In this document: positions 22,475-50,073 of the stretch, piece by piece
Layout: each line of letters opens with the position of its first letter
How positions within the stretch are numbered: position 1 is the first letter of the stretch
Source of the DNA: a virus
Lineage: Duplodnaviria; Heunggongvirae; Uroviricota; Caudoviricetes
Reading direction: 5' to 3' (one strand)
Length of the DNA stretch: 55,334 nucleotides
Virus record (IMG/VR): IMGVR_UViG_2737471838_000004
Coordinates: 1-55,334 of that record
Notes under the pieces: generated by a model
Seen by the model: only the letters and a program-made list of their open reading frames with translations
The model's database searches: none
What the model was told of the DNA's origin: nothing
Position numbers and translations under genes: made by a program

Positions 22475-23361
22475 TCTTCGCCATATTTAGCGTGCGCAAC
22501 CTTATAGTTTTCTTGCGCCCGATCTAATATTCGTTTGTTTAATATATTACCGTATTCGTCAACTAATACGGTAATCGTGCTACATTTGCAGTTAATTGAA
22601 TTAGGGGATTTGCTCCACCATTCGCGCTGCTCTTCTATGGTGTATGTTTTCCCGTGCCGCTGTGCGTGTGACAGCCTGGTAGTCGGTGACAATGCCGAAA
22701 TGTGCATCTGCATAGTGCGCAAGTTAAGCTCTTCAGTAGCCGCTTCTGCCTCATCCATACGCGCTGTGCGCAACGCTGTGCATATTTCAGTACGGGCAAT
22801 ACGTTTGCACCTGTATAGCGGTAATTGCGTTTCCTGCTGCAATGTGCGCGCTATTTCGAGTGGGTTTAAGCCACGGGCCATGCCTTCGGTTAATCGGCGG
22901 GCCATATCCTTCTTGATCTGTGCCGTCAGCCCGCGCATCTCTTCAAATACACGGGTACGGACCAGGGCAAGGCGCGTGCGATAGGTCTGGCTGGTTAATA
23001 CCGCCGACACTTCAGGGTAAGCCCTGGAATATGTGACTGACTGGTTAGCAAGGTTGGCATATTCCTGTGAAGTGCCGCGCTGATATGCCACTTTCACGTA
23101 TTCCTGCCAGAACCAGAAGTTCTCCGGGTCTGTTAACTCGAATATTTCATCAATCATGTCGCTGGCGTCTTCCAGCAAGTCATGTAATTCGTCAATGTAG
23201 ATCTGAAAGGTGTATTTCTTATTAACAGCCAGGCTGTATTGCATTCTGTCCAGTATGGCAATATACGGATCCGCAACTTTCTTCAGGCAGGCTTTAAAAC
23301 GCTTGATAGCGCCCGAACGTAACTTCCCTGTCATGGTCGGGTCTTCGGTGTTAGATGGCAT
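22465..23361 (-). CDS. phage head morphogenesis protein (Mu F / SPP1 gp7-like)
   Basis: ORF 22465..23409; C-terminal region typical of MuF-like minor head proteins; directly downstream of portal. Confidence 0.65.
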   Translation of the reverse strand: MPSNTEDPTMTGKLRSGAIKRFKACLKKVADPYIAILDRMQYSLAVNKKYTFQIYIDELHDLLEDASDMIDEIFELTDPENFWFWQEYVKVAYQRGTSQEYANLANQSVTYSRAYPEVSAVLTSQTYRTRLALVRTRVFEEMRGLTAQIKKDMARRLTEGMARGLNPLEIARTLQQETQLPLYRCKRIARTEICTALRTARMDEAEAATEELNLRTMQMHISALSPTTRLSHAQRHGKTYTIEEQREWWSKSPNSINCKCSTITVLVDEYGNILNKRILDRAQENYKVAHAKYGEDWE

Positions 23362-24742
23362 TATCGCGGCTGGAGGTATTCGCCTGATTATCTTCTTCAC
23401 CTTCATCATCGTTTTCCTCTTCCGTTTCCACTACACTGGCAGGGCCATCGTATCCGGCAGCCTCGCGGATCTCGTCACCGCTAAATATTTCTTCACCAGT
23501 AGCCAAACAAGCCTGATTGATTTGTGCCATTTTGTGTGCCGCTTCCAGTAGTTCGGCTTTGGTCATGGCGTTCAGGTCGTCCCATATCACTGATACGTCA
23601 ATTGGCATACTGATAAGGCGGAGATCTGCCATCTTGCTGAATAGATCCTCAAGTTCACCGCCGATTTCCTCCCTGCGGGTCATACAGCGGCTGTTGAAGT
23701 AGCGGAGGTCTTCGGTTGATGCGCGTTCGCCCTGCTGGTTCCCAACCAGGATGCGAGTCGGAATATCAATACCAGCGGCGGCGGTTTGCAGGTTGACATC
23801 ATAGGTTGCTGACGGGTCAGATACGGCAGTCACCAGCGGGCTAACTGTGGCCCCTTGTAATGCCATCATCACGTCGTTACCCTTATTCATTTCATCCGCT
23901 GCCTCGTTGAATTTTTCTCGAAGCTCTGTGACGTCGCATCCGTATGTGGCTGCCAGTGACCGGAAGTCAATATCCTTGTCGAACGAGATAGCTAACTGGC
24001 GGGCAGCGTTTTTCAGGAATGATTCACCGCTACCCCCTTCCACTTTCTCAAGCGACACAAAGGCGTTATATGACGGCTCAAGGAAGGCTATTGCATCATC
24101 AGAATAGTCACCGAAGATGAATATGCGGTCAGGGTGGATCCTTCTTGCTATGGTCTTACTGTTAATGCGTTCCTTGTACTCCCACCACGTCGGCAGGCCA
24201 TAGTTTTCATTATCCGGGTTTTCTTCGAAGTCCTTCGGCGTCAGAGCACCAGCCCATGCCGGGGTAAATTTGGCAATGCCTACGCCTTTTGTCACAGGCT
24301 GGTCCCACGCCTTACCATCTCTGACATGAATCAACAGGCCAGCATAACGACCGATGAGGCGGCGGCGGTCACATTCGGCAATGACGCGCCAAAATCTGTT
24401 GTCGAACTGTTTCTTGATTTCTCTTTCCCAGGGTGTTTCCTTTTCGGCCTTCTCGTCTTCGGTTCCCTCGATTAGCGTTGGCATGGTTCTCCAGCAGGTA
24501 GTGACAATCTTTTCTACAGCACCATGAGCGATACCACCGCGACGATACAGCTTGTATAGATCGTCATAGGTTATTTCTTCTTTGAATCCGTATTCACTCC
24601 ACGCAGCATCACGTTTGGCATCTATCCCCATAGTGAATGGGTGTGCTGCGGCATAGCGGGCGTAGGCCGCCTGGCGTTGAGACAAGGCAGCATTAACCGC
24701 CAATTCTAAATTGGATGGCATAATGTTTACTCCTGAATACAT
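23351..24742 (-). CDS. portal protein
   Basis: 463 aa; acidic C-terminus, position after TerL; start may be ATG at 24721 (AGGAG RBS) rather than 24742. Confidence 0.75.
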   Translation of the reverse strand: MYSGVNIMPSNLELAVNAALSQRQAAYARYAAAHPFTMGIDAKRDAAWSEYGFKEEITYDDLYKLYRRGGIAHGAVEKIVTTCWRTMPTLIEGTEDEKAEKETPWEREIKKQFDNRFWRVIAECDRRRLIGRYAGLLIHVRDGKAWDQPVTKGVGIAKFTPAWAGALTPKDFEENPDNENYGLPTWWEYKERINSKTIARRIHPDRIFIFGDYSDDAIAFLEPSYNAFVSLEKVEGGSGESFLKNAARQLAISFDKDIDFRSLAATYGCDVTELREKFNEAADEMNKGNDVMMALQGATVSPLVTAVSDPSATYDVNLQTAAAGIDIPTRILVGNQQGERASTEDLRYFNSRCMTRREEIGGELEDLFSKMADLRLISMPIDVSVIWDDLNAMTKAELLEAAHKMAQINQACLATGEEIFSGDEIREAAGYDGPASVVETEEENDDEGEEDNQANTSSRDNAI

Positions 24743-35401: not shown

Positions 35402-35804
35402 TGTCACCCCACATATTAGTCGCGTATTCGTCAATATCCGGTAGTAGGTCGCCGCGTTCGCGGATCTTAATAAACAATCGCCCGCCTTTTACCTTCCGGC
35501 AGCGAACAATTTTTATAGAATCGATTTGTCCGTCATCAGTCCAGAATCCGGCGTATGTAAGGCTATCAAAAAGGCATTTAGGGATATTATCCAGATCTCT
35601 GGTTCGGTTATCCGGCGGCGCGGCATGAATGGTAATTGCCAGTCGGCAAGATAGGTTAATATTTAAATTTAATAGCTCGATGATGTTTCTTACCTGTTCC
35701 CGGTATTCTTTCCCCACTTTACTGATATAATGAAAACCTCGTGAATGCCGGTAATACCTATTATTCGATGGCGGGTAAGGCAGGCTAAAAGAATATTCAT
35801 TCAT
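35385..35804 (-). CDS. rusA: Holliday junction resolvase RusA
   Basis: 139 aa; motifs PPSNNRYY, RDLDN, GFW.DD typical of RusA. Confidence 0.85.
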   Translation of the reverse strand: MNEYSFSLPYPPSNNRYYRHSRGFHYISKVGKEYREQVRNIIELLNLNINLSCRLAITIHAAPPDNRTRDLDNIPKCLFDSLTYAGFWTDDGQIDSIKIVRCRKVKGGRLFIKIRERGDLLPDIDEYATNMWGDNEKRN

Positions 35805-36289
35805 GGAGGATTTCTCATTTCATATTTGTGAAAACCGTATTTTATTTCAGCGTCACGTCTAGCGCGTATTGCGTCTTCTATATCTTTAAACCTCCCTAAA
35901 TAGATTGTTTTGCCGTTTACATGTATAAAAGCGTCATAAGCGTTTTTATGGAAGTAGACCCCGGTTATTCCTAGTTTATTATTTTTCTGCACGTTCCTAT
36001 TTTGTTGGTTTTGCTGTGGAGTAACAAGAAACAGGTTTTCTATATTATTATTTAGTCGGTTTCTATCAAAATGATCTATTTGATACCCTTCCGGGATCGG
36101 GCCGTTGTGCATCTCCCAAATAATATGATGTGCCAAATACATGTTTTGTTTGTATTTTATTAATCTGTAAGACGTTGTGCTACTCACACAACCAGCAAGA
36201 TCACCGACACAAATTTTTCCGTGTTTTGGTTTTATTTTCCAGTAAAGATCGCCATTTCTATATTCAAATATATCACCCCAATTATGCAC
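35801..36289 (-). CDS. HNH homing-endonuclease-like protein (HNH + AP2-like)
   Basis: 162 aa; IWEMHNGPIPEGYQIDHFDRNRLNN...NLFLVT; paralog of 49570..50073 and 52979..53437. Confidence 0.75.
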   Translation of the reverse strand: MHNWGDIFEYRNGDLYWKIKPKHGKICVGDLAGCVSSTTSYRLIKYKQNMYLAHHIIWEMHNGPIPEGYQIDHFDRNRLNNNIENLFLVTPQQNQQNRNVQKNNKLGITGVYFHKNAYDAFIHVNGKTIYLGRFKDIEDAIRARRDAEIKYGFHKYEMRNPP

Positions 36290-36890: not shown

Positions 36891-36904
36891 AAAAACCACC
36901 CCGA

Positions 36905-37081
36905 TTATTTTTGATTCTCTGTTTCGTTCAGCCTTTCGGCGTGTCCGGCCCTTAGCCAATGATCTAAACATTCGTTGCACTCGTTGCAGTCTCCTTTCTT
37001 CGTGCTGCATACATTGCACATTGCACGCATGACGCTTTCTCGTTCATAGTCGTCATGCCATTGGTAATTATCAAAAGGCAT
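36905..37081 (-). CDS. small Cys-rich (zinc-ribbon-like) protein
   Basis: hand-translated 58 aa MPFDNYQWHDDYERESVMRAMCNVCSTKKGDCNECNECLDHW...; AAGGAGA RBS. Confidence 0.4.
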   Translation of the reverse strand: MPFDNYQWHDDYERESVMRAMCNVCSTKKGDCNECNECLDHWLRAGHAERLNETENQK

Positions 37082-37240
37082 AATGCTCTCTCCTTTTCAG
37101 GTGATTTCTACGCATTTCAGCGCTGCCGGATTTTTAAAGAGCATTTCGTTTGCTTGAAGTATACAAAATGGATACACCATAACAAGACAAAAAGCGCCAT
37201 TATGTGATCCGCATCACGCAATGACGCCATTTTGTAAATT

Positions 37241-38023
37241 TCAGTCCGGTAAAACGCGGTTAAGCGTAGTACGATTGATGGCACGGTCGTTAGCAAGGAA
37301 TACAGCACGGGCAAAGCCACGCGGCGTTAGTGAGCGGATCATCTTTGTTCGTTTCGTCCTGCCTCCGGTTTTCGCCCACCCAGGGTTATCACCAGAGTTA
37401 AGATCTACAGGTCTAAAAAGCGGCTGTTTAAATCCGTTACCGCACCATATGCAAGTTTTCTTTGTATATGCGTCGCGCGGCGGGTAAACATCCGGGAAAG
37501 CAGGATGTTTGTCATCTTCCGGCAGGTAGCCACCGTAAGCGCAAGGATTGAAGATAAAATCAGGCTTACGCCATAACGTTGACAGTGCGCCCACCGGATT
37601 TTCCACCATCCACGGCACGTTGTACATATTTGCCAGTTTTTCCACCAGTTTTGCGCTATTCGCCGCCTTCACCTGGAAGCCTGGATCTTTTTTTCGCTTG
37701 TCAGCGAACCAGCGAGCGCCAGACACGGCGAGATCGTCGCATGGCGGAAAACCCATGATAATATCAGGCTCCGGGTAAACTGATAATTCAGGCGAGAACA
37801 TCACCAGGAAATGGCTATCAATCCATACGTTAACGTATTCAATATTTGGATGAATTATTTTAACGCCTTCATAATCGCCGTGATTTGCGCCGTCATAGTT
37901 GAAGCAATAGCACTTATATCCCGCTTCAGCCCAATCTTTAACTGCGTACCCGCTGCCGTCGTACAGCGACCACACAACCCAACTTCTTAGCCAGTTATTT
38001 AACCAGTGTTTAGCCTTTCTCAT
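37241..38023 (-). CDS. divergent DNA cytosine-C5 methyltransferase-like protein
   Basis: 260 aa; motif I-like LYDGSGYA, motif IV-like GFPPCDDLAVSG (PCD rather than PCQ), motif VI-like MVENPVG. Confidence 0.5.
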   Translation of the reverse strand: MRKAKHWLNNWLRSWVVWSLYDGSGYAVKDWAEAGYKCYCFNYDGANHGDYEGVKIIHPNIEYVNVWIDSHFLVMFSPELSVYPEPDIIMGFPPCDDLAVSGARWFADKRKKDPGFQVKAANSAKLVEKLANMYNVPWMVENPVGALSTLWRKPDFIFNPCAYGGYLPEDDKHPAFPDVYPPRDAYTKKTCIWCGNGFKQPLFRPVDLNSGDNPGWAKTGGRTKRTKMIRSLTPRGFARAVFLANDRAINRTTLNRVLPD

Positions 38024-38565
38024 TTTATGCCCTCAAACGTGAAATAGCGGCGCATGATGATAGTGATCACCGTTACCGCTGCCATTTTTGAGATGAATTG
38101 CATTGCTGATATTTCAGGCATAAACGCCATGAATGATAGCGTAGGAAAAATCAACGCATCGCCAATGGCTGACGCTATATTTGCAGGCCAGCGCTTAGAA
38201 TCGAAATCACCAGGCAAAACCCGGTAAACGCCGCCAGAAATAAGCGCACCGGAAACAACCGCAACGAATGACGCTATCGCCACCATTCCGGCGTCGTAAT
38301 TTATCAGCACAGTAATTGCGCCAGCGGCGGCGCATGTAGTAGCTGACCATTTCAGGCCGCCGTCATATAACAGAAAGTCACGGATCATCATATTGACATA
38401 CACAGCGGCTACCGTGGTGATCGGAATTACCCACGGGCCACAGTGGTTAACAATAAGGTTGATGATCACGAAAACGGCGACATAAACGCAGGCTAATAAC
38501 CTGTTAATTGTCACCCTTTCCATTTTTATGATACCCCGCCGCGCGTAATAGCGATTCGTTGTCAA
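38020..38565 (-). CDS. multi-pass integral membrane protein
   Basis: 181-aa ORF with 4-5 predicted hydrophobic helices; start may be the internal MERVTINR. Confidence 0.5.
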   Translation of the reverse strand: MTTNRYYARRGIIKMERVTINRLLACVYVAVFVIINLIVNHCGPWVIPITTVAAVYVNMMIRDFLLYDGGLKWSATTCAAAGAITVLINYDAGMVAIASFVAVVSGALISGGVYRVLPGDFDSKRWPANIASAIGDALIFPTLSFMAFMPEISAMQFISKMAAVTVITIIMRRYFTFEGIK

Positions 38566-39016
38566 ACTTCACATCAAGCCGATTAGTAATCTTACCACCG
38601 TTAAACATCACAGGTGGGATTGTCCCCAGTACAATAGATGGTTCTGGTCCAGCAGGATCAGCAAAAGTTTTCTTCAATCCACCGATAGGGAGATCAAAAA
38701 CGCCCTGTTTCTTTCTTTGTTCTTCCTCCCGCTCCGTTAATATTTGCTCCGCTTTTAGCGCGTTATAAGCAATAAGGTCTATAAGAGTATCGAGCGGGTC
38801 GCTACCATTGCTTAAAACGGCCTCTAATCGCGCCTCCTTGAGACAAATTAGCAGATCCCATACATCAAGCGGGGTTAAATTTGTCCCCTTCTTAGCGTTG
38901 TAAATATTTGCTATTTTTGGCGCTGATTTTTCTTCTTTTCGATCGTATCCGTTTTGTTCCCCTCTTGCCTCAATAGTTTCAGCCGCAAGTCTTAGCAATT
39001 CAGCCGCTTTACTCAT
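38504..39016 (-). CDS. hypothetical protein
   Basis: ORF 38504..39034 trimmed to MSKAAELL; function unknown. Confidence 0.45.
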   Translation of the reverse strand: MSKAAELLRLAAETIEARGEQNGYDRKEEKSAPKIANIYNAKKGTNLTPLDVWDLLICLKEARLEAVLSNGSDPLDTLIDLIAYNALKAEQILTEREEEQRKKQGVFDLPIGGLKKTFADPAGPEPSIVLGTIPPVMFNGGKITNRLDVKFDNESLLRAAGYHKNGKGDN

Positions 39017-39548
39017 TTTCTGCACCTCTTGCATATAGCTCTTTACGTGTTATCTGCGTGAAAATACATTCATGTCTGCATCGTGGATGCCAGATCAAGA
39101 ACAAACTCCCTTTATTGTTTCCGCTTGCTGGTTTACCCGTCGCAGCATTGATAAACGCCAGCCGCCCTCGCGTAATTAATCGGCATTCGTTTGCCGTCTC
39201 CACGCCGTTCATAAACCAGTTAACAGAGATGTCGGCGGGCAACAACATTACACAGCCAATATGATTTCGGTGATGTTCCGTTGCTGCCTTATCAACGAAT
39301 GGCCCCGGATTAGAATATGGTGGATTAAGCCAGACATACTCACCAGGCATTGCCACCGCTCCCCACGGATAATGCAACGTGTCCATTTCTTCTGTTATAT
39401 ATCGCGGGATTAATGCGTTTGCCTTGTTTGCCGCCACGTCAGCGACGAATTCGAATTCACGATCCATTCCTCTAAAAACTGGTTTTGGCGTTTGCCATAA
39501 GTCCTTTATTTCTTTTGGCGTATGGCTTCCGCCGTAATCATTTTTCAT
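39009..39548 (-). CDS. dam: DNA N6-adenine methyltransferase (phage Dam-like)
   Basis: 179 aa; catalytic NPPY motif in WLNPPYSNPGPFV. Confidence 0.8.
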   Translation of the reverse strand: MKNDYGGSHTPKEIKDLWQTPKPVFRGMDREFEFVADVAANKANALIPRYITEEMDTLHYPWGAVAMPGEYVWLNPPYSNPGPFVDKAATEHHRNHIGCVMLLPADISVNWFMNGVETANECRLITRGRLAFINAATGKPASGNNKGSLFLIWHPRCRHECIFTQITRKELYARGAENE

Positions 39549-39557
39549 TACGCCCCC

Positions 39558-39791
39558 TTAGAAATAATCCTGATCAGTCCCCCAGCGGTTATTTAGATAC
39601 CCCACCAACCACACAAAACGCTCAATGCTAATTAGCGGGGCGACCTTGCGATAATGCTTGTCGAGTATCAGCCGCGTGGCTTTATCGCTGTATCCGTTCT
39701 TTTCTACCTCCGCTTTGCAGGCAGAAAGCGCCGCGCGTGCGGCAGTTTTTACGGCGTTGAATTGCGGCTCTGACAGGTTGAATAAAGCCAT
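39558..39791 (-). CDS. hypothetical protein
   Basis: 77-aa ORF in early-left operon. Confidence 0.4.
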   Translation of the reverse strand: MALFNLSEPQFNAVKTAARAALSACKAEVEKNGYSDKATRLILDKHYRKVAPLISIERFVWLVGYLNNRWGTDQDYF

Positions 39792-39793
39792 AA

Positions 39794-40045
39794 TTAAAAA
39801 GGATCATCCCAATCTGGCGCGGCAGTCCAGCAAAACCCGATAAATGCACTAACCGTTAATAAAGCGCGCCCTGCGGCAAGGATCTCGCCTATTTCGTTAA
39901 ATTCAGGCAGTGACCACGTAATAAACATTGCCCCCAGCATAATAACAACGATAACAGCCATGAACGCCAGGAAAACAAAAAGCGTAGCTAAAAGCCACGC
40001 TCCCAACCAGTTTAAAAAGCTCTTAACCATTTTAAACGTCCTCAA
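39794..40045 (-). CDS. small membrane protein
   Basis: 83 aa with two hydrophobic helices. Confidence 0.4.
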   Translation of the reverse strand: MRTFKMVKSFLNWLGAWLLATLFVFLAFMAVIVVIMLGAMFITWSLPEFNEIGEILAAGRALLTVSAFIGFCWTAAPDWDDPF

Positions 40046-40235
40046 TCACCCCGTCTTTTACACGCTCTTTAATATCCCAAACGTGAGGCTTGCATATTTC
40101 CTGATAATAGTGATCTGGCCTGCTGCCAAAATACCATTTGCCATCCATATAAAAATAAACGCCAGAAAAATTTCCTGGCGCTGCCTTTGTTGCTGATTCT
40201 GGAATTTTCCATTCTTTATAGTGTTTAAACTTCAT
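40032..40235 (-). CDS. hypothetical protein
   Basis: 67-aa ORF. Confidence 0.35.
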   Translation of the reverse strand: MKFKHYKEWKIPESATKAAPGNFSGVYFYMDGKWYFGSRPDHYYQEICKPHVWDIKERVKDGVIEDV

Positions 40236-40419
40236 GAGCTTTTAAATAACCTCTTCTGAATGCTTTGATGTAAAGTCCTAGCCTTCTTATATGCTGAACG
40301 CCATCAATGATGCGCACTAAATAAATCGCCCCGTTTGCGTCAGATACAAAACGACAACCAAAACCAATGCCGACTAACTTCAGGTTTTCAGGTATTCTAT
40401 AATCAGTTTCCTGTTCCAT
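40225..40419 (-). CDS. hypothetical protein
   Basis: 64-aa ORF. Confidence 0.35.
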   Translation of the reverse strand: MEQETDYRIPENLKLVGIGFGCRFVSDANGAIYLVRIIDGVQHIRRLGLYIKAFRRGYLKAHEV

Positions 40420-48449: not shown

Positions 48450-49580
48450 ATGTCGCAAAGAAAAATCAGCGATGAACAATTGATCGCTGAATACAACAAC
48501 GGTTTAACGTACAAACAGATCGCTGAAAAGTACGGCATGTCTAAACGCAATGTCGAACGCCTGGGCGCAAAACTGGCAAAACGCGGTTTAATATCAACAC
48601 GCCGCGCGCCTGGTTTTAGCGTTACTGGCGAGTCAGTGCTTGTTGACAATAACGGGAATACAGTCATGCGCTGGATTAAAACAGCCCGTGACCGCGACGA
48701 AATGGAAATGCTAATGGAAGCTGCACGCGACGCTTTCACGGATGAAATACCACGCGCGGAGGCCGTGCCAGTTCCGGAAATTGATTTTCAAAAAAGCCTG
48801 GCTCTTTATCCGGTATTTGATCTGCATATCGGGGCGCTTGCTCATAAAGCTGAATGCGGCGAGAGCTACGACACTGGGATCGCTGAGCGCGTGTTGAATG
48901 ACTTCTTTGACTACGCCGTTGGCGCTGCGCCGATGTCTGAAAAAGCTGTATTGCTTCTCGGTGGCGATCTGCTTCACTCTGACGGTATGGTCCCGGTGAC
49001 GCCAACAAGCGGGCACATTCTTGATCAAGATAGTCGCTACGCAAAACTTGTTTATGTGGCGATCCGGTCTGTCCGTCGTGCGGTAGGGAAGATGTTGCTA
49101 AATCATAAGGATGTGGAAATCCAGGTGTTATCAGGGAATCATGACCAGTCTGGTATGATTTGGCTACGTGCGGCGCTGGCGGCTTTTTACGAAGATGAAC
49201 CGCGCGTGACGGTTGATGTGTCCCCTGCCATCGTCCACCACACACAGTACGGAAAAACGTTCCTTGCTTACCACCACGGGCACACTATCAAAAAGCCTGA
49301 AAATTTATTGTCTGCTTGCGTCTCTGACTGGCGGGAAGACTTTGGCAAGTCAAAATATGTTTACGTACATGTGGGCCATTTGCACCATAAATCAGTGACA
49401 GAATCATCTATAGGCATAGTTGAACATCATGGCACGTTAGCGGGAAAAGACGCTTATTCAACTAATGGAGGATGGAGATCGCAACGTTGCGCTGCGGTTA
49501 TCATTTACAGTCCTGACTATGGCGAAATTGGTCGCTTTGTATATAGGCCTGAAATGGTGGAGTGTCATAATGTGGGATGA
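48450..49580 (+). CDS. HTH-domain protein fused to calcineurin-like metallophosphoesterase domain
   Basis: ORF 48426..49580 trimmed to MSQRKISDE (GGAGG RBS); N-terminal HTH (LTYKQIAEKYGMSKRNVERL); phosphoesterase motifs DLHIG, GGDLLHSD, GNHD, GHLHH. Confidence 0.55.
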   Translation: MSQRKISDEQLIAEYNNGLTYKQIAEKYGMSKRNVERLGAKLAKRGLISTRRAPGFSVTGESVLVDNNGNTVMRWIKTARDRDEMEMLMEAARDAFTDEIPRAEAVPVPEIDFQKSLALYPVFDLHIGALAHKAECGESYDTGIAERVLNDFFDYAVGAAPMSEKAVLLLGGDLLHSDGMVPVTPTSGHILDQDSRYAKLVYVAIRSVRRAVGKMLLNHKDVEIQVLSGNHDQSGMIWLRAALAAFYEDEPRVTVDVSPAIVHHTQYGKTFLAYHHGHTIKKPENLLSACVSDWREDFGKSKYVYVHVGHLHHKSVTESSIGIVEHHGTLAGKDAYSTNGGWRSQRCAAVIIYSPDYGEIGRFVYRPEMVECHNVG

Positions 49581-50073
49581 TTTATTTACCTATAGTGACG
49601 GCGTTCTATATTGGTCTTGTAATCGTGCAAACAACAAAATAAAAGCAGGTAGCGTGGCTGGATGTAAACATTATCGCGGATATTGGACTGTACGCGTTAA
49701 TGGTATTTGTTGCACATGGCGTCACCGCATTATCTGGGAAATGTTTAACGGCCCTATTCCTGATGGAATGGAAATAGATCACATAAATCATGTACCTGGT
49801 GATGATAGAATCGAAAACTTAAGGATGGTGACAAGGAAGGAGAATAACAGAAACAAAACAATGCCATCAAGTAACACTAGCGGATGCGTTGGCGTTACGT
49901 GGAACAAGAAAACCAATAAATGGCGTGCGCAAATAGGTATAAGGGGGTCTGATGGGAAAAAGAAAACAATATACGTTTATTACGGTGACTCATTTGATGA
50001 TGCCGTAAAAGCAAGAAAAGAAGCTGAAAGAATGTATAACTTTCATAGCAATCACGGCATTTCTTTACCATGA
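49570..50073 (+). CDS. HNH homing-endonuclease-like protein (HNH + AP2-like)
   Basis: ORF 49465..50073 trimmed to MWDDLFTYSDGVLYW; IIWEMFNGPIPDGMEIDHINH...NLRMVT. Confidence 0.75.
   Translation: MWDDLFTYSDGVLYWSCNRANNKIKAGSVAGCKHYRGYWTVRVNGICCTWRHRIIWEMFNGPIPDGMEIDHINHVPGDDRIENLRMVTRKENNRNKTMPSSNTSGCVGVTWNKKTNKWRAQIGIRGSDGKKKTIYVYYGDSFDDAVKARKEAERMYNFHSNHGISLP

What the first reader, a model, noticed from the sequence alone, without database searches (positions are those of the whole stretch)
37241..39548. DNA-modification cluster: atypical C5-methyltransferase-like protein (PCD motif), multi-pass membrane protein, unknown protein and Dam-like N6-adenine methyltransferase
A Dam-type MTase (NPPY motif) lies in one operon with a small 260-aa protein carrying C5-MTase motifs I, IV and VI, but with the catalytic-loop sequence PPCDD instead of the canonical PCQ. 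Between them are a 4-5-helix membrane protein and a 170-aa protein of unknown function. Two DNA-modifying enzymes together suggest an anti-restriction or epigenetic module. The PCD variant and the embedded membrane protein are unusual and could mean a modification other than plain 5mC, or a transport step. The membrane protein weakly resembles YhhQ/VUT-family transporters, but that is speculative.
Basis: partly seen in the sequence, partly recalled or inferred. Interest (0 to 1): 0.65.

Follow-up and report, generated by a model that had tools for sequence, protein, structure and literature searches.

The report
Two phage methylases plus orphan transporter
This stretch of an mEp021-type temperate E. 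coli phage encodes two ordinary stand-alone DNA methylases (adenine and cytosine) with a small YhhQ-like membrane transporter between them; the transporter is the one mildly puzzling part, because its usual partner enzyme for 7-deazaguanine DNA modification is missing.

Summary
The four minus-strand genes are real, overlap end to end and are under purifying selection (dN/dS 0.05-0.30). The window is an mEp021-like coliphage, and the published mEp021 record already annotates the same genes.

- **Dam (39548..39009):** a textbook phage Dam (TIGR01712, NPPY).
- **Membrane protein:** In 74 of 80 other viral loci this family sits directly beside a DpdA-like transglycosylase. This phage has none, and its clade has replaced two aspartates shared by YhhQ and the DpdA-linked clade.
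- **DUF6378:** unresolved.

The four-gene order is confined to the mEp021 lineage. In three relatives the Dcm-like gene is replaced by an HNH endonuclease gene.

Verdict: two known orphan methylases placed next to an orphan transporter, not a hypermodification pathway. Interest is low to moderate.

The parts
39009..39548 (-). Phage Dam-type N6-adenine DNA methyltransferase (179 aa; NPPY at residues 75-78)
   Evidence: Pfam PF05869 E=2.9e-51 over 1-167/169. NCBIfam TIGR01712 phage_N6A_met, an equivalog model, 140.8 bits against a cut-off of 97.05. phrog_111. dN/dS 0.06. NPPY position.
38504..39034 (-). DUF6378 protein (176 aa from the first ATG; probably 170 aa starting at 39016). It has a conserved helical N-terminal domain of about 95 aa and a variable, probably disordered C-terminal tail. 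Function unknown.
   Evidence: Pfam PF19905 DUF6378 at 29.9 bits against a cut-off of 27.1. phrog_9871 and phrog_474. Alignment A3 shows a conserved N-terminus and a variable C-terminus. A 99-aa version with the N-domain only occurs in the divergent relative L088. The AF2 model predicts four helices but at pLDDT 46, so it is unusable. dN/dS 0.30.
38020..38565 (-). Miniature Vut_1/YhhQ-family inner-membrane protein (probably 167 aa starting at 38523; about 6 TM segments). It belongs to a branch without DpdA.
   Evidence: Pfam Vut_1 only E=0.41 but over the full length. phrog_4899. The profile search finds 276 representatives, and distant ones pass the Vut_1 cut-off. hhalign to E. coli YhhQ gives E=6.3e-5. 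Related phage proteins are annotated 'VUT family protein'. dN/dS 0.05. Hydropathy.
37241..38023 (-). Small Dcm-like C5-cytosine DNA methyltransferase (260 aa). Catalytic C95 lies in GFPPCDD, E141 in ENPV, and K188/K189 occupy the motif VIII position. The TRD is reduced to about 35 residues.

Best explanation
This is part of the delayed-early rightward operon of an mEp021-like temperate coliphage. Upstream (in the direction of transcription) lie the recombination and small early genes; downstream lie the NinG/RusA/Q-like genes. The stretch carries two independent orphan DNA methyltransferases and two accessory genes that happen to sit between them.

1. The Dam homologue methylates adenine N6. 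GATC is inferred from the equivalog family.
2. The 260-aa protein is a miniature Dcm-like C5-cytosine methyltransferase. Cys95 attacks C6 of a flipped-out cytosine, Glu141 (ENPV) protonates N3, and a methyl group is taken from SAM to give 5-methylcytosine. The probable target is CCWGG, as reported for the K42 homologue. Together the two enzymes fully methylate replicating phage DNA whatever the host's own Dam/Dcm status. This protects progeny from GATC- and CCWGG-type restriction. As a side effect such enzymes are what retrons Eco1/Ec86 (Dcm) and Sen2 (Dam) sense.
3. The membrane protein is a six-helix YhhQ/VUT-type permease for a small nucleobase-like solute. By homology this is a 7-deazaguanine precursor such as preQ0 or preQ1. 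Its branch of the family has lost the DpdA partner and two conserved aspartates, so its substrate or role has probably shifted.
4. DUF6378 is a small helical protein of unknown function that is often found in phage nucleotide/DNA-metabolism regions.

Shown here: the folds, family memberships, gene order, selection, absence of DpdA, and distribution. Inferred: the target sites, the anti-restriction benefit, and the transporter's substrate.
For: - Origin and existing annotation.
- Dam.
- C5-MTase fold. Family alignment with invariant P93 P94 C95, E141 N142 P143 V144 and K188.
- Link to an experimentally tested enzyme: K42 Dcm is a 711-bp gene with C82/E128/K175/K176, produces 5mC by LC-MS, needs a CCWGG site in the msDNA, and 34 of 35 Ec86-sensitive phages sequenced (Drexlerviridae, Siphoviridae, Demerecviridae) encode a Dcm (bioRxiv 10.1101/2023.08.16.553469). 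The 711-bp JakobBernoulli gene has exactly those residues and is 61% identical to the window protein.
- VUT homology.
- VUT normally paired with a DpdA-like gene: 74 of 80 viral loci and 3 of 3 E. coli Drexlerviridae examined.
- No DpdA in the window: HMM against the six-frame translation gives no hit even at E<=10. No tgt/que genes are named in the PGAP annotation of a 92.8%-identical prophage or in a Pfam scan of the unassigned mid-size ORFs.
- Independence of the genes.
- Purifying selection on all four genes.
- No avoidance of GATC (266 observed, 260 expected) or CCWGG (132 observed, 138 expected).
Against: - No biochemical data exist for this protein or for any mEp021-group member.
- The CCWGG specificity of the K42 enzyme rests on msDNA mutants, not on methylome mapping, and how a TRD of about 35 residues reads five bases is unexplained.
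- The window protein has no Pfam PF00145 hit. It lacks a recognisable GN(A/S)V motif X and has K-K instead of R-x-R in motif VIII.
- K42's sequence itself was not available. Family membership of K42 Dcm is inferred from identical gene length and four matching residue numbers.
- Dam-DUF6378-VUT are always together and translationally coupled in this lineage, including a relative with only 52% VUT identity. A functional link among these three cannot be excluded.
- Strong constraint on the orphan VUT (dN/dS 0.05) shows it does something, and that role is unexplained.
Confidence: 0.72

Rival explanations
1. Integrated hypermodification module. The transporter imports a precursor that one of the enzymes, or an unrecognised partner such as DUF6378, installs in phage DNA, giving a base other than 5mC or m6A, for example a 7-deazaguanine.
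For: - The VUT family is otherwise tightly coupled to DpdA-type 7-deazaguanine DNA modification (PMC6884629 and PMC7544227).
- Dam-DUF6378-VUT are invariably linked, with overlapping reading frames, throughout the mEp021 lineage.
- VUT is under strong purifying selection.
- Other DpdA-less relatives also sit beside nucleotide or DNA enzymes: MazG-like protein and ligase in L003, and an N6_N4 MTase in L089.
Against: - No DpdA/TGT-like gene or preQ0 biosynthesis gene was found anywhere in the 55-kb window or in related annotated phages and prophages.
- Neither MTase fold performs base exchange.
- DUF6378 is a helical domain of about 95 aa.
- The Dcm-like gene can be swapped for an HNH gene without loss of VUT.
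- The orphan clade has lost D44 and D96, which are conserved in YhhQ and in the DpdA-linked clade.
Confidence: 0.1
2. The 260-aa enzyme is a carboxymethyl- or other alkyl-transferase. It would use host carboxy-SAM (E. coli makes it with CmoA) to form 5-carboxymethylcytosine, as phage CmoX does.
For: - Like CmoX, the family has a PPC rather than a PCQ motif IV.
- The K42 study assayed only 5mC.
Against: - The CmoX signature is SPPC plus Arg350 in motif X, with a phage cmoA nearby. The window has FPPC, no recognisable motif X and no annotated cmoA.
- The K42 homologue raised 5mC on msDNA in a catalytic-residue-dependent way.
Confidence: 0.05
3. The VUT gene is only a leftover of a lost dpdA-vut pair and has no present function, so the cluster is simply two MTases plus junk.
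For: - DpdA is absent.
- Two family-conserved aspartates are lost.
- In phage CAjan, deleting yhhQ has no effect on modification.
Against: - dN/dS is 0.05 across 48 comparisons at dS of about 0.30, the strongest constraint of the four genes.
- Protein identity is 95-97% while the DNA is 88-91% identical.
- The DpdA-less clade persists in at least three unrelated phage backbones.
- N22, R48, D122 and K146 are retained.
Confidence: 0.08

Closest known systems
Phage K42 Dcm / Drexlerviridae 'Dcm-like C5 cytosine methyltransferase' (e.g. JakobBernoulli bas07_0054; phrog_757), the trigger of retron Ec86/Eco1
   Same: Same family: 61% identity over 234 residues. Both have the catalytic Cys in FPPC, ENPV, the KK pair, the RSLTPRGFA C-terminal motif and a minimal TRD. 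DNMT3-like enzymes are the nearest solved folds.
   Different: PCD instead of PCT after the catalytic Cys. There are a 13-15-residue N-terminal helix and a C-terminal tail of about 15 residues that are specific to the mEp021 lineage. It resides in a temperate phage's early operon next to VUT rather than as a lone gene in a lytic phage. It has not been tested biochemically.
Phage Dam of the PF05869/TIGR01712 family (T1-type and prophage Dam methylases)
   Same: Full-length match above the curated equivalog cut-off, with the NPPY catalytic motif and the same size.
   Different: Nothing notable. Target specificity (GATC) is assumed, not tested.
E. coli YhhQ (COG1738, Vut_1), the preQ0/preQ1 transporter, and phage 'VUT family proteins' paired with DpdA (CAjan cluster, PEAT2, AB3P2, LHE71, Opt-719)
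   Same: Six-TM architecture and shared motifs (A/S-N-L, L-R-D, IAxAS, SN..A.VDS.xFPxxAF, K in TM6). N22, R48, D122 and K146 are retained.
   Different: About 55 residues shorter than YhhQ, and below the Pfam threshold itself. There is no adjacent or distant DpdA. The two aspartates conserved in YhhQ and in the DpdA-linked phage clade are replaced (D44N, D96S/A), along with N36T, H52 to hydrophobic and GG149-150 to A/V.
CmoX DNA cytosine C5-carboxymethyltransferase (Synechococcus phage S-B43; PDB 8yf3)
   Different: Lacks the SPPC serine, has no recognisable motif X Arg350 equivalent and no cmoA/cmoY neighbours. It is 90 residues shorter.

Membership tests
C5-cytosine DNA methyltransferases (small phage Dcm-like subfamily, phrog_757) | Class I Rossmann-like MTase fold with C5-MTase topology | tested here: met
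C5-cytosine DNA methyltransferases (small phage Dcm-like subfamily, phrog_757) | Motif I (FxGxG SAM loop), motif IV Pro-Cys nucleophile, motif VI ENV glutamate | tested here: met
   LYDGSG (G23, S24 invariant), FPPC (P93 P94 C95 invariant) and ENPV (E141-V144 invariant) in 27 sequences. Motifs I and IV align to M.HaeIII and DNMT3B.
C5-cytosine DNA methyltransferases (small phage Dcm-like subfamily, phrog_757) | Canonical motif VIII (QxRxR), motif X (GN[AS]V) and a target-recognition domain; Pfam PF00145 match | tested here: not met
   No PF00145 hit at E<=1. K188-K189-T190 replace R-x-R. No GN(A/S)V is present: the protein ends 10-25 residues after RSLTPRGFA. The TRD region is about 35 residues. 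hhalign to E. coli Dcm aligns only motif IV. Two of the 120 listed homologues carry a precomputed PF00145 hit.
C5-cytosine DNA methyltransferases (small phage Dcm-like subfamily, phrog_757) | Close homology to a member with demonstrated 5mC formation | tested here: met
   61% identity, E=6e-106, to the 711-bp Hanrivervirus gene whose C82/E128/K175/K176 equal the residues mutated in K42 Dcm. The identity of K42 with that gene is inferred; its sequence was not checked.
C5-cytosine DNA methyltransferases (small phage Dcm-like subfamily, phrog_757) | SAM-dependent formation of 5-methylcytosine in DNA by this protein | not testable with these tools
   Needs enzymology or methylome sequencing.
Phage Dam N6-adenine methyltransferase (PF05869 / TIGR01712) | Score above the curated family cut-offs over the full length; (D/N)PPY motif | tested here: met
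   173.9 bits against 28.1 (Pfam) and 140.8 against 97.05 (TIGR01712 equivalog). NPPY at residues 75-78.
Vut_1 / YhhQ (COG1738) queuosine-precursor transporters | Pfam Vut_1 match above the gathering score | tested here: not met
   The window protein scores 11.4 bits against 27.2, E=0.41, although the match covers 28-171 against 7-149/152.
Vut_1 / YhhQ (COG1738) queuosine-precursor transporters | Homology by profile or transitive search; multi-pass membrane architecture; conserved polar residues | tested here: met
   The family profile retrieves proteins that pass Vut_1 at 31-58 bits. hhalign to E. coli YhhQ gives E=6.3e-5, probability 65%, 143 columns. About 6 hydrophobic segments. N22, R48, D122 and K146 are shared with YhhQ, but D44 and D96 are lost.
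Vut_1 / YhhQ (COG1738) queuosine-precursor transporters | Transport of preQ0/preQ1 | not testable with these tools
   Would need complementation of an E. coli queD yhhQ double mutant, or uptake assays.
Phage 7-deazaguanine DNA modification systems (DpdA with or without FolE/QueD/QueE/QueC/YhhQ) | A DpdA/TGT-family DNA transglycosylase encoded by the phage | tested here: not met
   An HMM built from 53 DpdA-like neighbours of VUT genes (phrog_887, E=7e-69) finds nothing in the six-frame translation of the window at E<=10. None is annotated in mEp021 or the related prophage. A Pfam scan of 10 unassigned ORFs found none.
Phage 7-deazaguanine DNA modification systems (DpdA with or without FolE/QueD/QueE/QueC/YhhQ) | preQ0 biosynthesis genes in the phage | tested here: not met
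   None appear in the PGAP annotation of the related prophage L007, which covers about 37 kb of the roughly 54-kb prophage, or in the mEp021 record over the region shown. No dedicated HMM search was run for each Que protein.
CmoX-type DNA cytosine C5-carboxymethyltransferases | SPPC motif plus the motif X arginine (R350); cmoA in the genome | tested here: not met
   The window has FPPC and the family has F/Y at that position. No motif X is present and no cmoA is annotated in relatives. Criteria taken from PMC12783734. The structural equivalent of R350 could not be examined.
DUF6378 (PF19905) | Pfam match above the gathering score | tested here: met
   29.9 bits against 27.1, residues 13-96. 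All 120 listed homologues carry PF19905.

The most novel reading that the evidence does not exclude
The DpdA-less branch of the phage mini-VUT family has acquired a new substrate or role. This branch comprises the mEp021-like phages, a 95-kb ligase/MazG-encoding phage and a Succinivibrio-type phage. The new role might be import of a different nucleobase or cofactor-related metabolite used together with DUF6378/MazG-like proteins, or manipulation of the host queuosine/preQ pool during infection. In that case the invariant Dam-DUF6378-VUT trio of mEp021-like phages would be a functional unit that is not yet recognised.
Probability: 0.15. Interest if true: 0.6.

Novelty: new member of a known kind. 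Interest (0 to 1): 0.3.

Why it matters
For the main claim it matters little. The phage carries two orphan methylases of well-known types, and the 'atypical' one belongs to a very large phage family (over 7,600 sequence clusters) that has an experimentally studied member.

Three points have practical value:
- The window protein can now be named a Dcm-like 5mC methyltransferase, and it is predicted to trigger retron Eco1/Ec86.
- The mEp021 'putative membrane protein' can be re-annotated as a VUT/YhhQ-family protein.
- The survey shows that phage mini-VUT genes are an almost perfect marker for an adjacent short DpdA-like transglycosylase, which several deposited phage genomes still label 'hypothetical'.

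The orphan, strongly constrained VUT clade is a small, well-defined open question about what a preQ-type permease does in a phage that cannot put deazaguanine into DNA.

Tried and rejected
- **DUF6378.** A PDB profile search found no meaningful hit. AF2 with a shallow, closely related alignment gave pLDDT 46, so no fold search was run. The idea that DUF6378 is a MazG-like all-alpha pyrophosphohydrolase came from the MazG-like gene next to VUT in L003. Only four predicted helices and a trivial BLAST match support it, so I leave it as a lead.
- **Pfam scan of the DpdA-like neighbour.** No hit; PHROGs identified it.
- **Genome-contig scan.** The first attempt, with a 7-sequence alignment of the orphan VUT clade, failed for lack of a conserved stretch. 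The second returned a single Succinivibrio MAG locus, the same type as L089.
- **Site-frequency test.** GATC and CCWGG counts are uninformative (ratios 1.02 and 0.96).
- **Promoter/terminator scan of 36900-40300.** Promoter-like hits were at the background level, while terminator-like hits were about 2.4 sd above the shuffles (8 found against a mean of 3.4, sd 1.9); nothing in the scan was usable for the argument. I did not verify the nutR2/terminator that the mEp021 paper describes downstream of the MTase gene.
- **Rejected: PCD as a sign of new chemistry.**
- **Rejected: the four genes as a general module.**
Full report
**Origin and observation**

The window (55,334 bp) is an mEp021-like, Nus-dependent, non-lambdoid temperate coliphage genome or prophage. 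The 2.8-kb region around the finding is 87-91% identical to phages mEp554, mEp010, mEp044, mEp515, mEp021, mEp013 and MagusPhagus. It is 88-93% identical to prophages in 35 of 5,426 complete E. coli genomes.

- Dam, 39548..39009.
- A DUF6378 protein, 39034/39016..38504.
- A membrane protein, 38565/38523..38020.
- A 260-aa C5-MTase-like protein, 38023..37241.

With the starts used by PGAP in relatives, the genes overlap by 8, 20 and 4 nt. The GenBank record of mEp021 already annotates the same genes as gp30 'putative DNA N-6 adenine methyltransferase', gp31 hypothetical, gp32 'putative membrane protein (6 TM)' and gp33 'putative DNA cytosine methyltransferase'. The mEpimmI paper mentions the MTase only as a landmark next to nutR2 (PMC11893012).

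All four are real genes. Nei-Gojobori dN/dS against 31-48 related phages is 0.06 (Dam), 0.30 (DUF6378), 0.05 (membrane protein) and 0.10 (MTase-like).

**Dam**

The 179-aa protein matches Pfam Dam (PF05869, E=2.9e-51, full length). It also matches the NCBIfam equivalog TIGR01712 'phage N-6-adenine-methyltransferase' well above its cut-off. NPPY lies at residues 75-78. Nothing about it is unusual.

**The 260-aa protein**

It has no Pfam, NCBIfam or PDB sequence hit, but it matches phrog_757 'DNA methyltransferase' at E=6e-88. It has more than 7,600 homologous clusters, nearly all 227-260 aa and phage-borne.

An alignment of 27 members shows these invariant features:
- G23-S24 in the F/Y-D-G-S-G loop (motif I).
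- P93-P94-C95 (motif IV).
- E141-N142-P143-V144 (motif VI).
- Y186, K188, T190, C191 and W193 at the motif VIII position.
- A C-terminal I-R-S-L-T-P-R-G-F-A helix.

The family consensus after the catalytic Cys is Thr (PPCTD). In 79 viral loci I counted PPCTD 40, PPCDD 24, PPCDN 7, PPCDH 5 and PPCTQ 2. Both D and T occur within the mEp021 group. The profile aligns motif IV to DNMT3B's SPC-N-DLS, so a non-Gln residue at this position is normal in bona fide C5-MTases.

**Link to experiment**

A preprint on retron Ec86/Eco1 (bioRxiv 10.1101/2023.08.16.553469) identified the trigger as a phage K42 'Dcm' encoded by a 711-bp gene.
- The authors mutated C82, E128, K175 and K176, chosen by superposition on DNMT3A.
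- Expression raised 5mC on msDNA by LC-MS in a way that depended on these residues.
- A CCWGG site in the msDNA was required.
- 34 of the 35 Ec86-sensitive phages they sequenced, from the Drexlerviridae, Siphoviridae and Demerecviridae, encode such a Dcm.

The Hanrivervirus JakobBernoulli gene annotated 'Dcm-like C5 cytosine methyltransferase' is also 711 bp, and its product has C82, E128, K175 and K176 exactly. It is 61% identical to the window protein over 234 residues (E=6e-106). The equivalent residues in the window protein are C95, E141, K188 and K189.

The window protein is therefore a member of an experimentally characterised family of miniature 5mC methyltransferases.

It departs from textbook C5-MTases in three ways: it lacks R-x-R in motif VIII, it lacks a recognisable GN(A/S)V motif X, and its TRD is only about 35 residues. 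These are family traits, not peculiarities of this phage.

A carboxymethyltransferase reading is unlikely. CmoX is defined by SPPC plus Arg350 and a neighbouring cmoA (PMC12783734), whereas the window has FPPC and no cmoA. It is not formally excluded, because the K42 study looked only for 5mC.

**The membrane protein**

Its own Pfam hit to Vut_1 is insignificant (E=0.41), though it is collinear over the full length. A profile of six close homologues searched against 1.84 billion representatives found 276 relatives. Distant ones, including versions of about 300 aa with an unknown C-terminal extension, pass the Vut_1 gathering score. A 26-sequence alignment shows YhhQ-like motifs. hhalign against E. 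coli YhhQ, which RefSeq annotates as 'queuosine precursor transporter', gives E=6.3e-5 over 143 columns. Related proteins in deposited phages are annotated 'VUT family protein'.

**What the VUT family normally does in phages**

I fetched 80 viral contigs encoding relatives that are 31-38% identical and clustered all neighbouring ORFs.
- In 74 of the 80 loci the adjacent gene on the same strand is a protein of about 245 aa that matches phrog_887 'queuine tRNA-ribosyltransferase' at E=7e-69. This is a short DpdA-like transglycosylase. It is usually immediately upstream and overlaps the VUT gene by 3-42 nt.
- The E. coli Drexlerviridae phages LHE71, Opt-719 and RCIP0319 have the same pair in the reverse order, with the DpdA-like gene labelled 'hypothetical'.
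- PEAT2 and AB3P2 also show the pair.

This fits the known role of YhhQ homologues in phage 7-deazaguanine clusters (PMC6884629, PMC7544227).

**The partner is missing here**

An HMM of the DpdA-like neighbours finds nothing in the six-frame translation of the window, mEp021 or a related prophage, even at E<=10. PGAP names no tgt or que genes in the related prophage. A Pfam scan of ten unassigned ORFs found only Bro-N/ANT, HTH, HNH and lysozyme domains.

The closest VUT relatives outside the mEp021 group also lack DpdA nearby:
- A divergent mEp021-like contig has the same Dam-DUF6378-VUT-Dcm order (L088).
- A 95-kb phage has the order DNA ligase-VUT-MazG-like pyrophosphohydrolase (L003).
- A Succinivibrio-type phage has an N6_N4 MTase two genes downstream (L089, L144).

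I compared this orphan clade with 59 DpdA-linked sequences and with YhhQ. It keeps N22, R48, D122 and K146. It has replaced two aspartates that are conserved in both the linked clade and YhhQ (D44 to N, D96 to S/A). It has also changed N36, H52 and the G149-G150 pair.

Together with dN/dS of 0.05, this points to a functional protein whose substrate or coupling has probably shifted. What it transports cannot be decided computationally.

**DUF6378**

The N-terminal 95 residues or so match PF19905 just above threshold. The C-terminal 70 residues are variable and are absent in L088. There is no PDB relative, and the AF2 model is unreliable (pLDDT 46).

A published gene table for a Faecalibacterium phage lists a 225-aa cytosine MTase, a PF05869 Dam, ThyX and a DUF6378 protein as near neighbours (PMC13432834). 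DUF6378 therefore tends to sit in nucleotide/DNA-metabolism regions. Its function remains unknown.

**Is it a module?**

- In 47 viral loci retrieved with DUF6378, 42 carry all four genes. Three carry Dam-DUF6378-VUT but have a 175-aa HNH endonuclease gene in place of the Dcm-like gene. Two distant loci have DUF6378 alone.
- In 43 non-mEp021 viral loci carrying the Dcm-like gene, none has Dam, DUF6378, VUT or DpdA within 4 kb.
- Among the 80 VUT loci, two have a distant Dcm-like gene and none has Dam.

The four-gene arrangement is therefore a lineage-specific juxtaposition, and the Dcm-like gene is separable. Only the Dam-DUF6378-VUT trio is invariably linked, and only within one closely related lineage, which is weak evidence of function.

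GATC and CCWGG are neither avoided nor enriched in the window.

**Verdict**

It is wrong where it made the finding exciting: PCD is not unusual chemistry, and the genes are not one pathway.

The most likely mechanism is plain self-methylation by two orphan MTases expressed from the early operon: m6A by Dam and 5mC by the mini-Dcm. This protects progeny DNA from restriction and can be sensed by retrons. An orphan YhhQ-type permease and a DUF6378 protein of unknown role are embedded between them.

Novelty is that of a new member of known kinds. The residual puzzle is the strongly conserved VUT branch that lacks DpdA.

Noticed in passing
L008-L087 (viral contigs); L093:3549-4292, L094:3492-4319, L095:3474-4301: Phage mini-VUT genes are almost always (74 of 80 loci) directly adjacent to, and often overlap, a DpdA-like transglycosylase of about 245-275 aa (phrog_887). 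That protein has no Pfam hit. In the deposited E. coli phages LHE71, Opt-719 and RCIP0319 it is annotated only as 'hypothetical protein', so these T1-like phages probably modify their DNA with a 7-deazaguanine.
   Followed up: partly
window 35801-36289 (-) and 49465-50073 (+): There are two HNH_3 homing-endonuclease-like ORFs. One lies between the NinG-like and RusA genes, where mEp021 and related prophages have no gene. The other carries an added AP2 domain. A related 175-aa HNH gene replaces the Dcm-like gene in relatives L116, L124 and L135, so HNH genes appear to move around this early region.
   Followed up: partly
whole window: CTGCAG (PstI-type site) occurs once against 10.8 expected from a maximal-order Markov model. 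GGCC is at 0.70 of expectation, whereas GATC and CCWGG are at expectation. This suggests selection against particular restriction sites.
   Followed up: no
P0157, P0180-P0182, P0187, P0200, P0207, P0239, P0268 (relatives of window 38020-38523): Many VUT-family representatives are about 300-340 aa, with the VUT domain at the N-terminus and an uncharacterised C-terminal extension of about 150 aa. Two of them carry DUF5020. The extension was not analysed.
   Followed up: no
L003:8001-9198 and L004:2729-3924: In an unrelated 95-kb phage contig the DpdA-less VUT gene lies between a DNA ligase gene and a MazG/PRA-PH-like nucleotide pyrophosphohydrolase gene, overlapping the latter by 8 nt in L003. 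This may parallel the DUF6378-VUT pairing in the window.
   Followed up: partly
L094:187-920 (-) (Escherichia phage LHE71): The Dcm-like gene of LHE71 matches the family HMM as two overlapping ORFs (187-627 and 498-920). This suggests a frameshift or pseudogene in that record.
   Followed up: no
Faecalibacterium phage vB_Fpr_FP01 gene table (PMC13432834): A phage of a Firmicutes host lists a 225-aa DNA cytosine MTase, a PF05869 Dam fragment, ThyX and a DUF6378 protein within five consecutive genes. This echoes the Dam/Dcm-like/DUF6378 neighbourhood seen here.
   Followed up: no
L007:5826-7205 (prophage related to the window): PGAP names a 459-aa gene in the head-morphogenesis region of the related prophage 'anti-CBASS protein Acb1 family protein'. 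The corresponding window ORF (about 23351-24742) was not examined.
   Followed up: no
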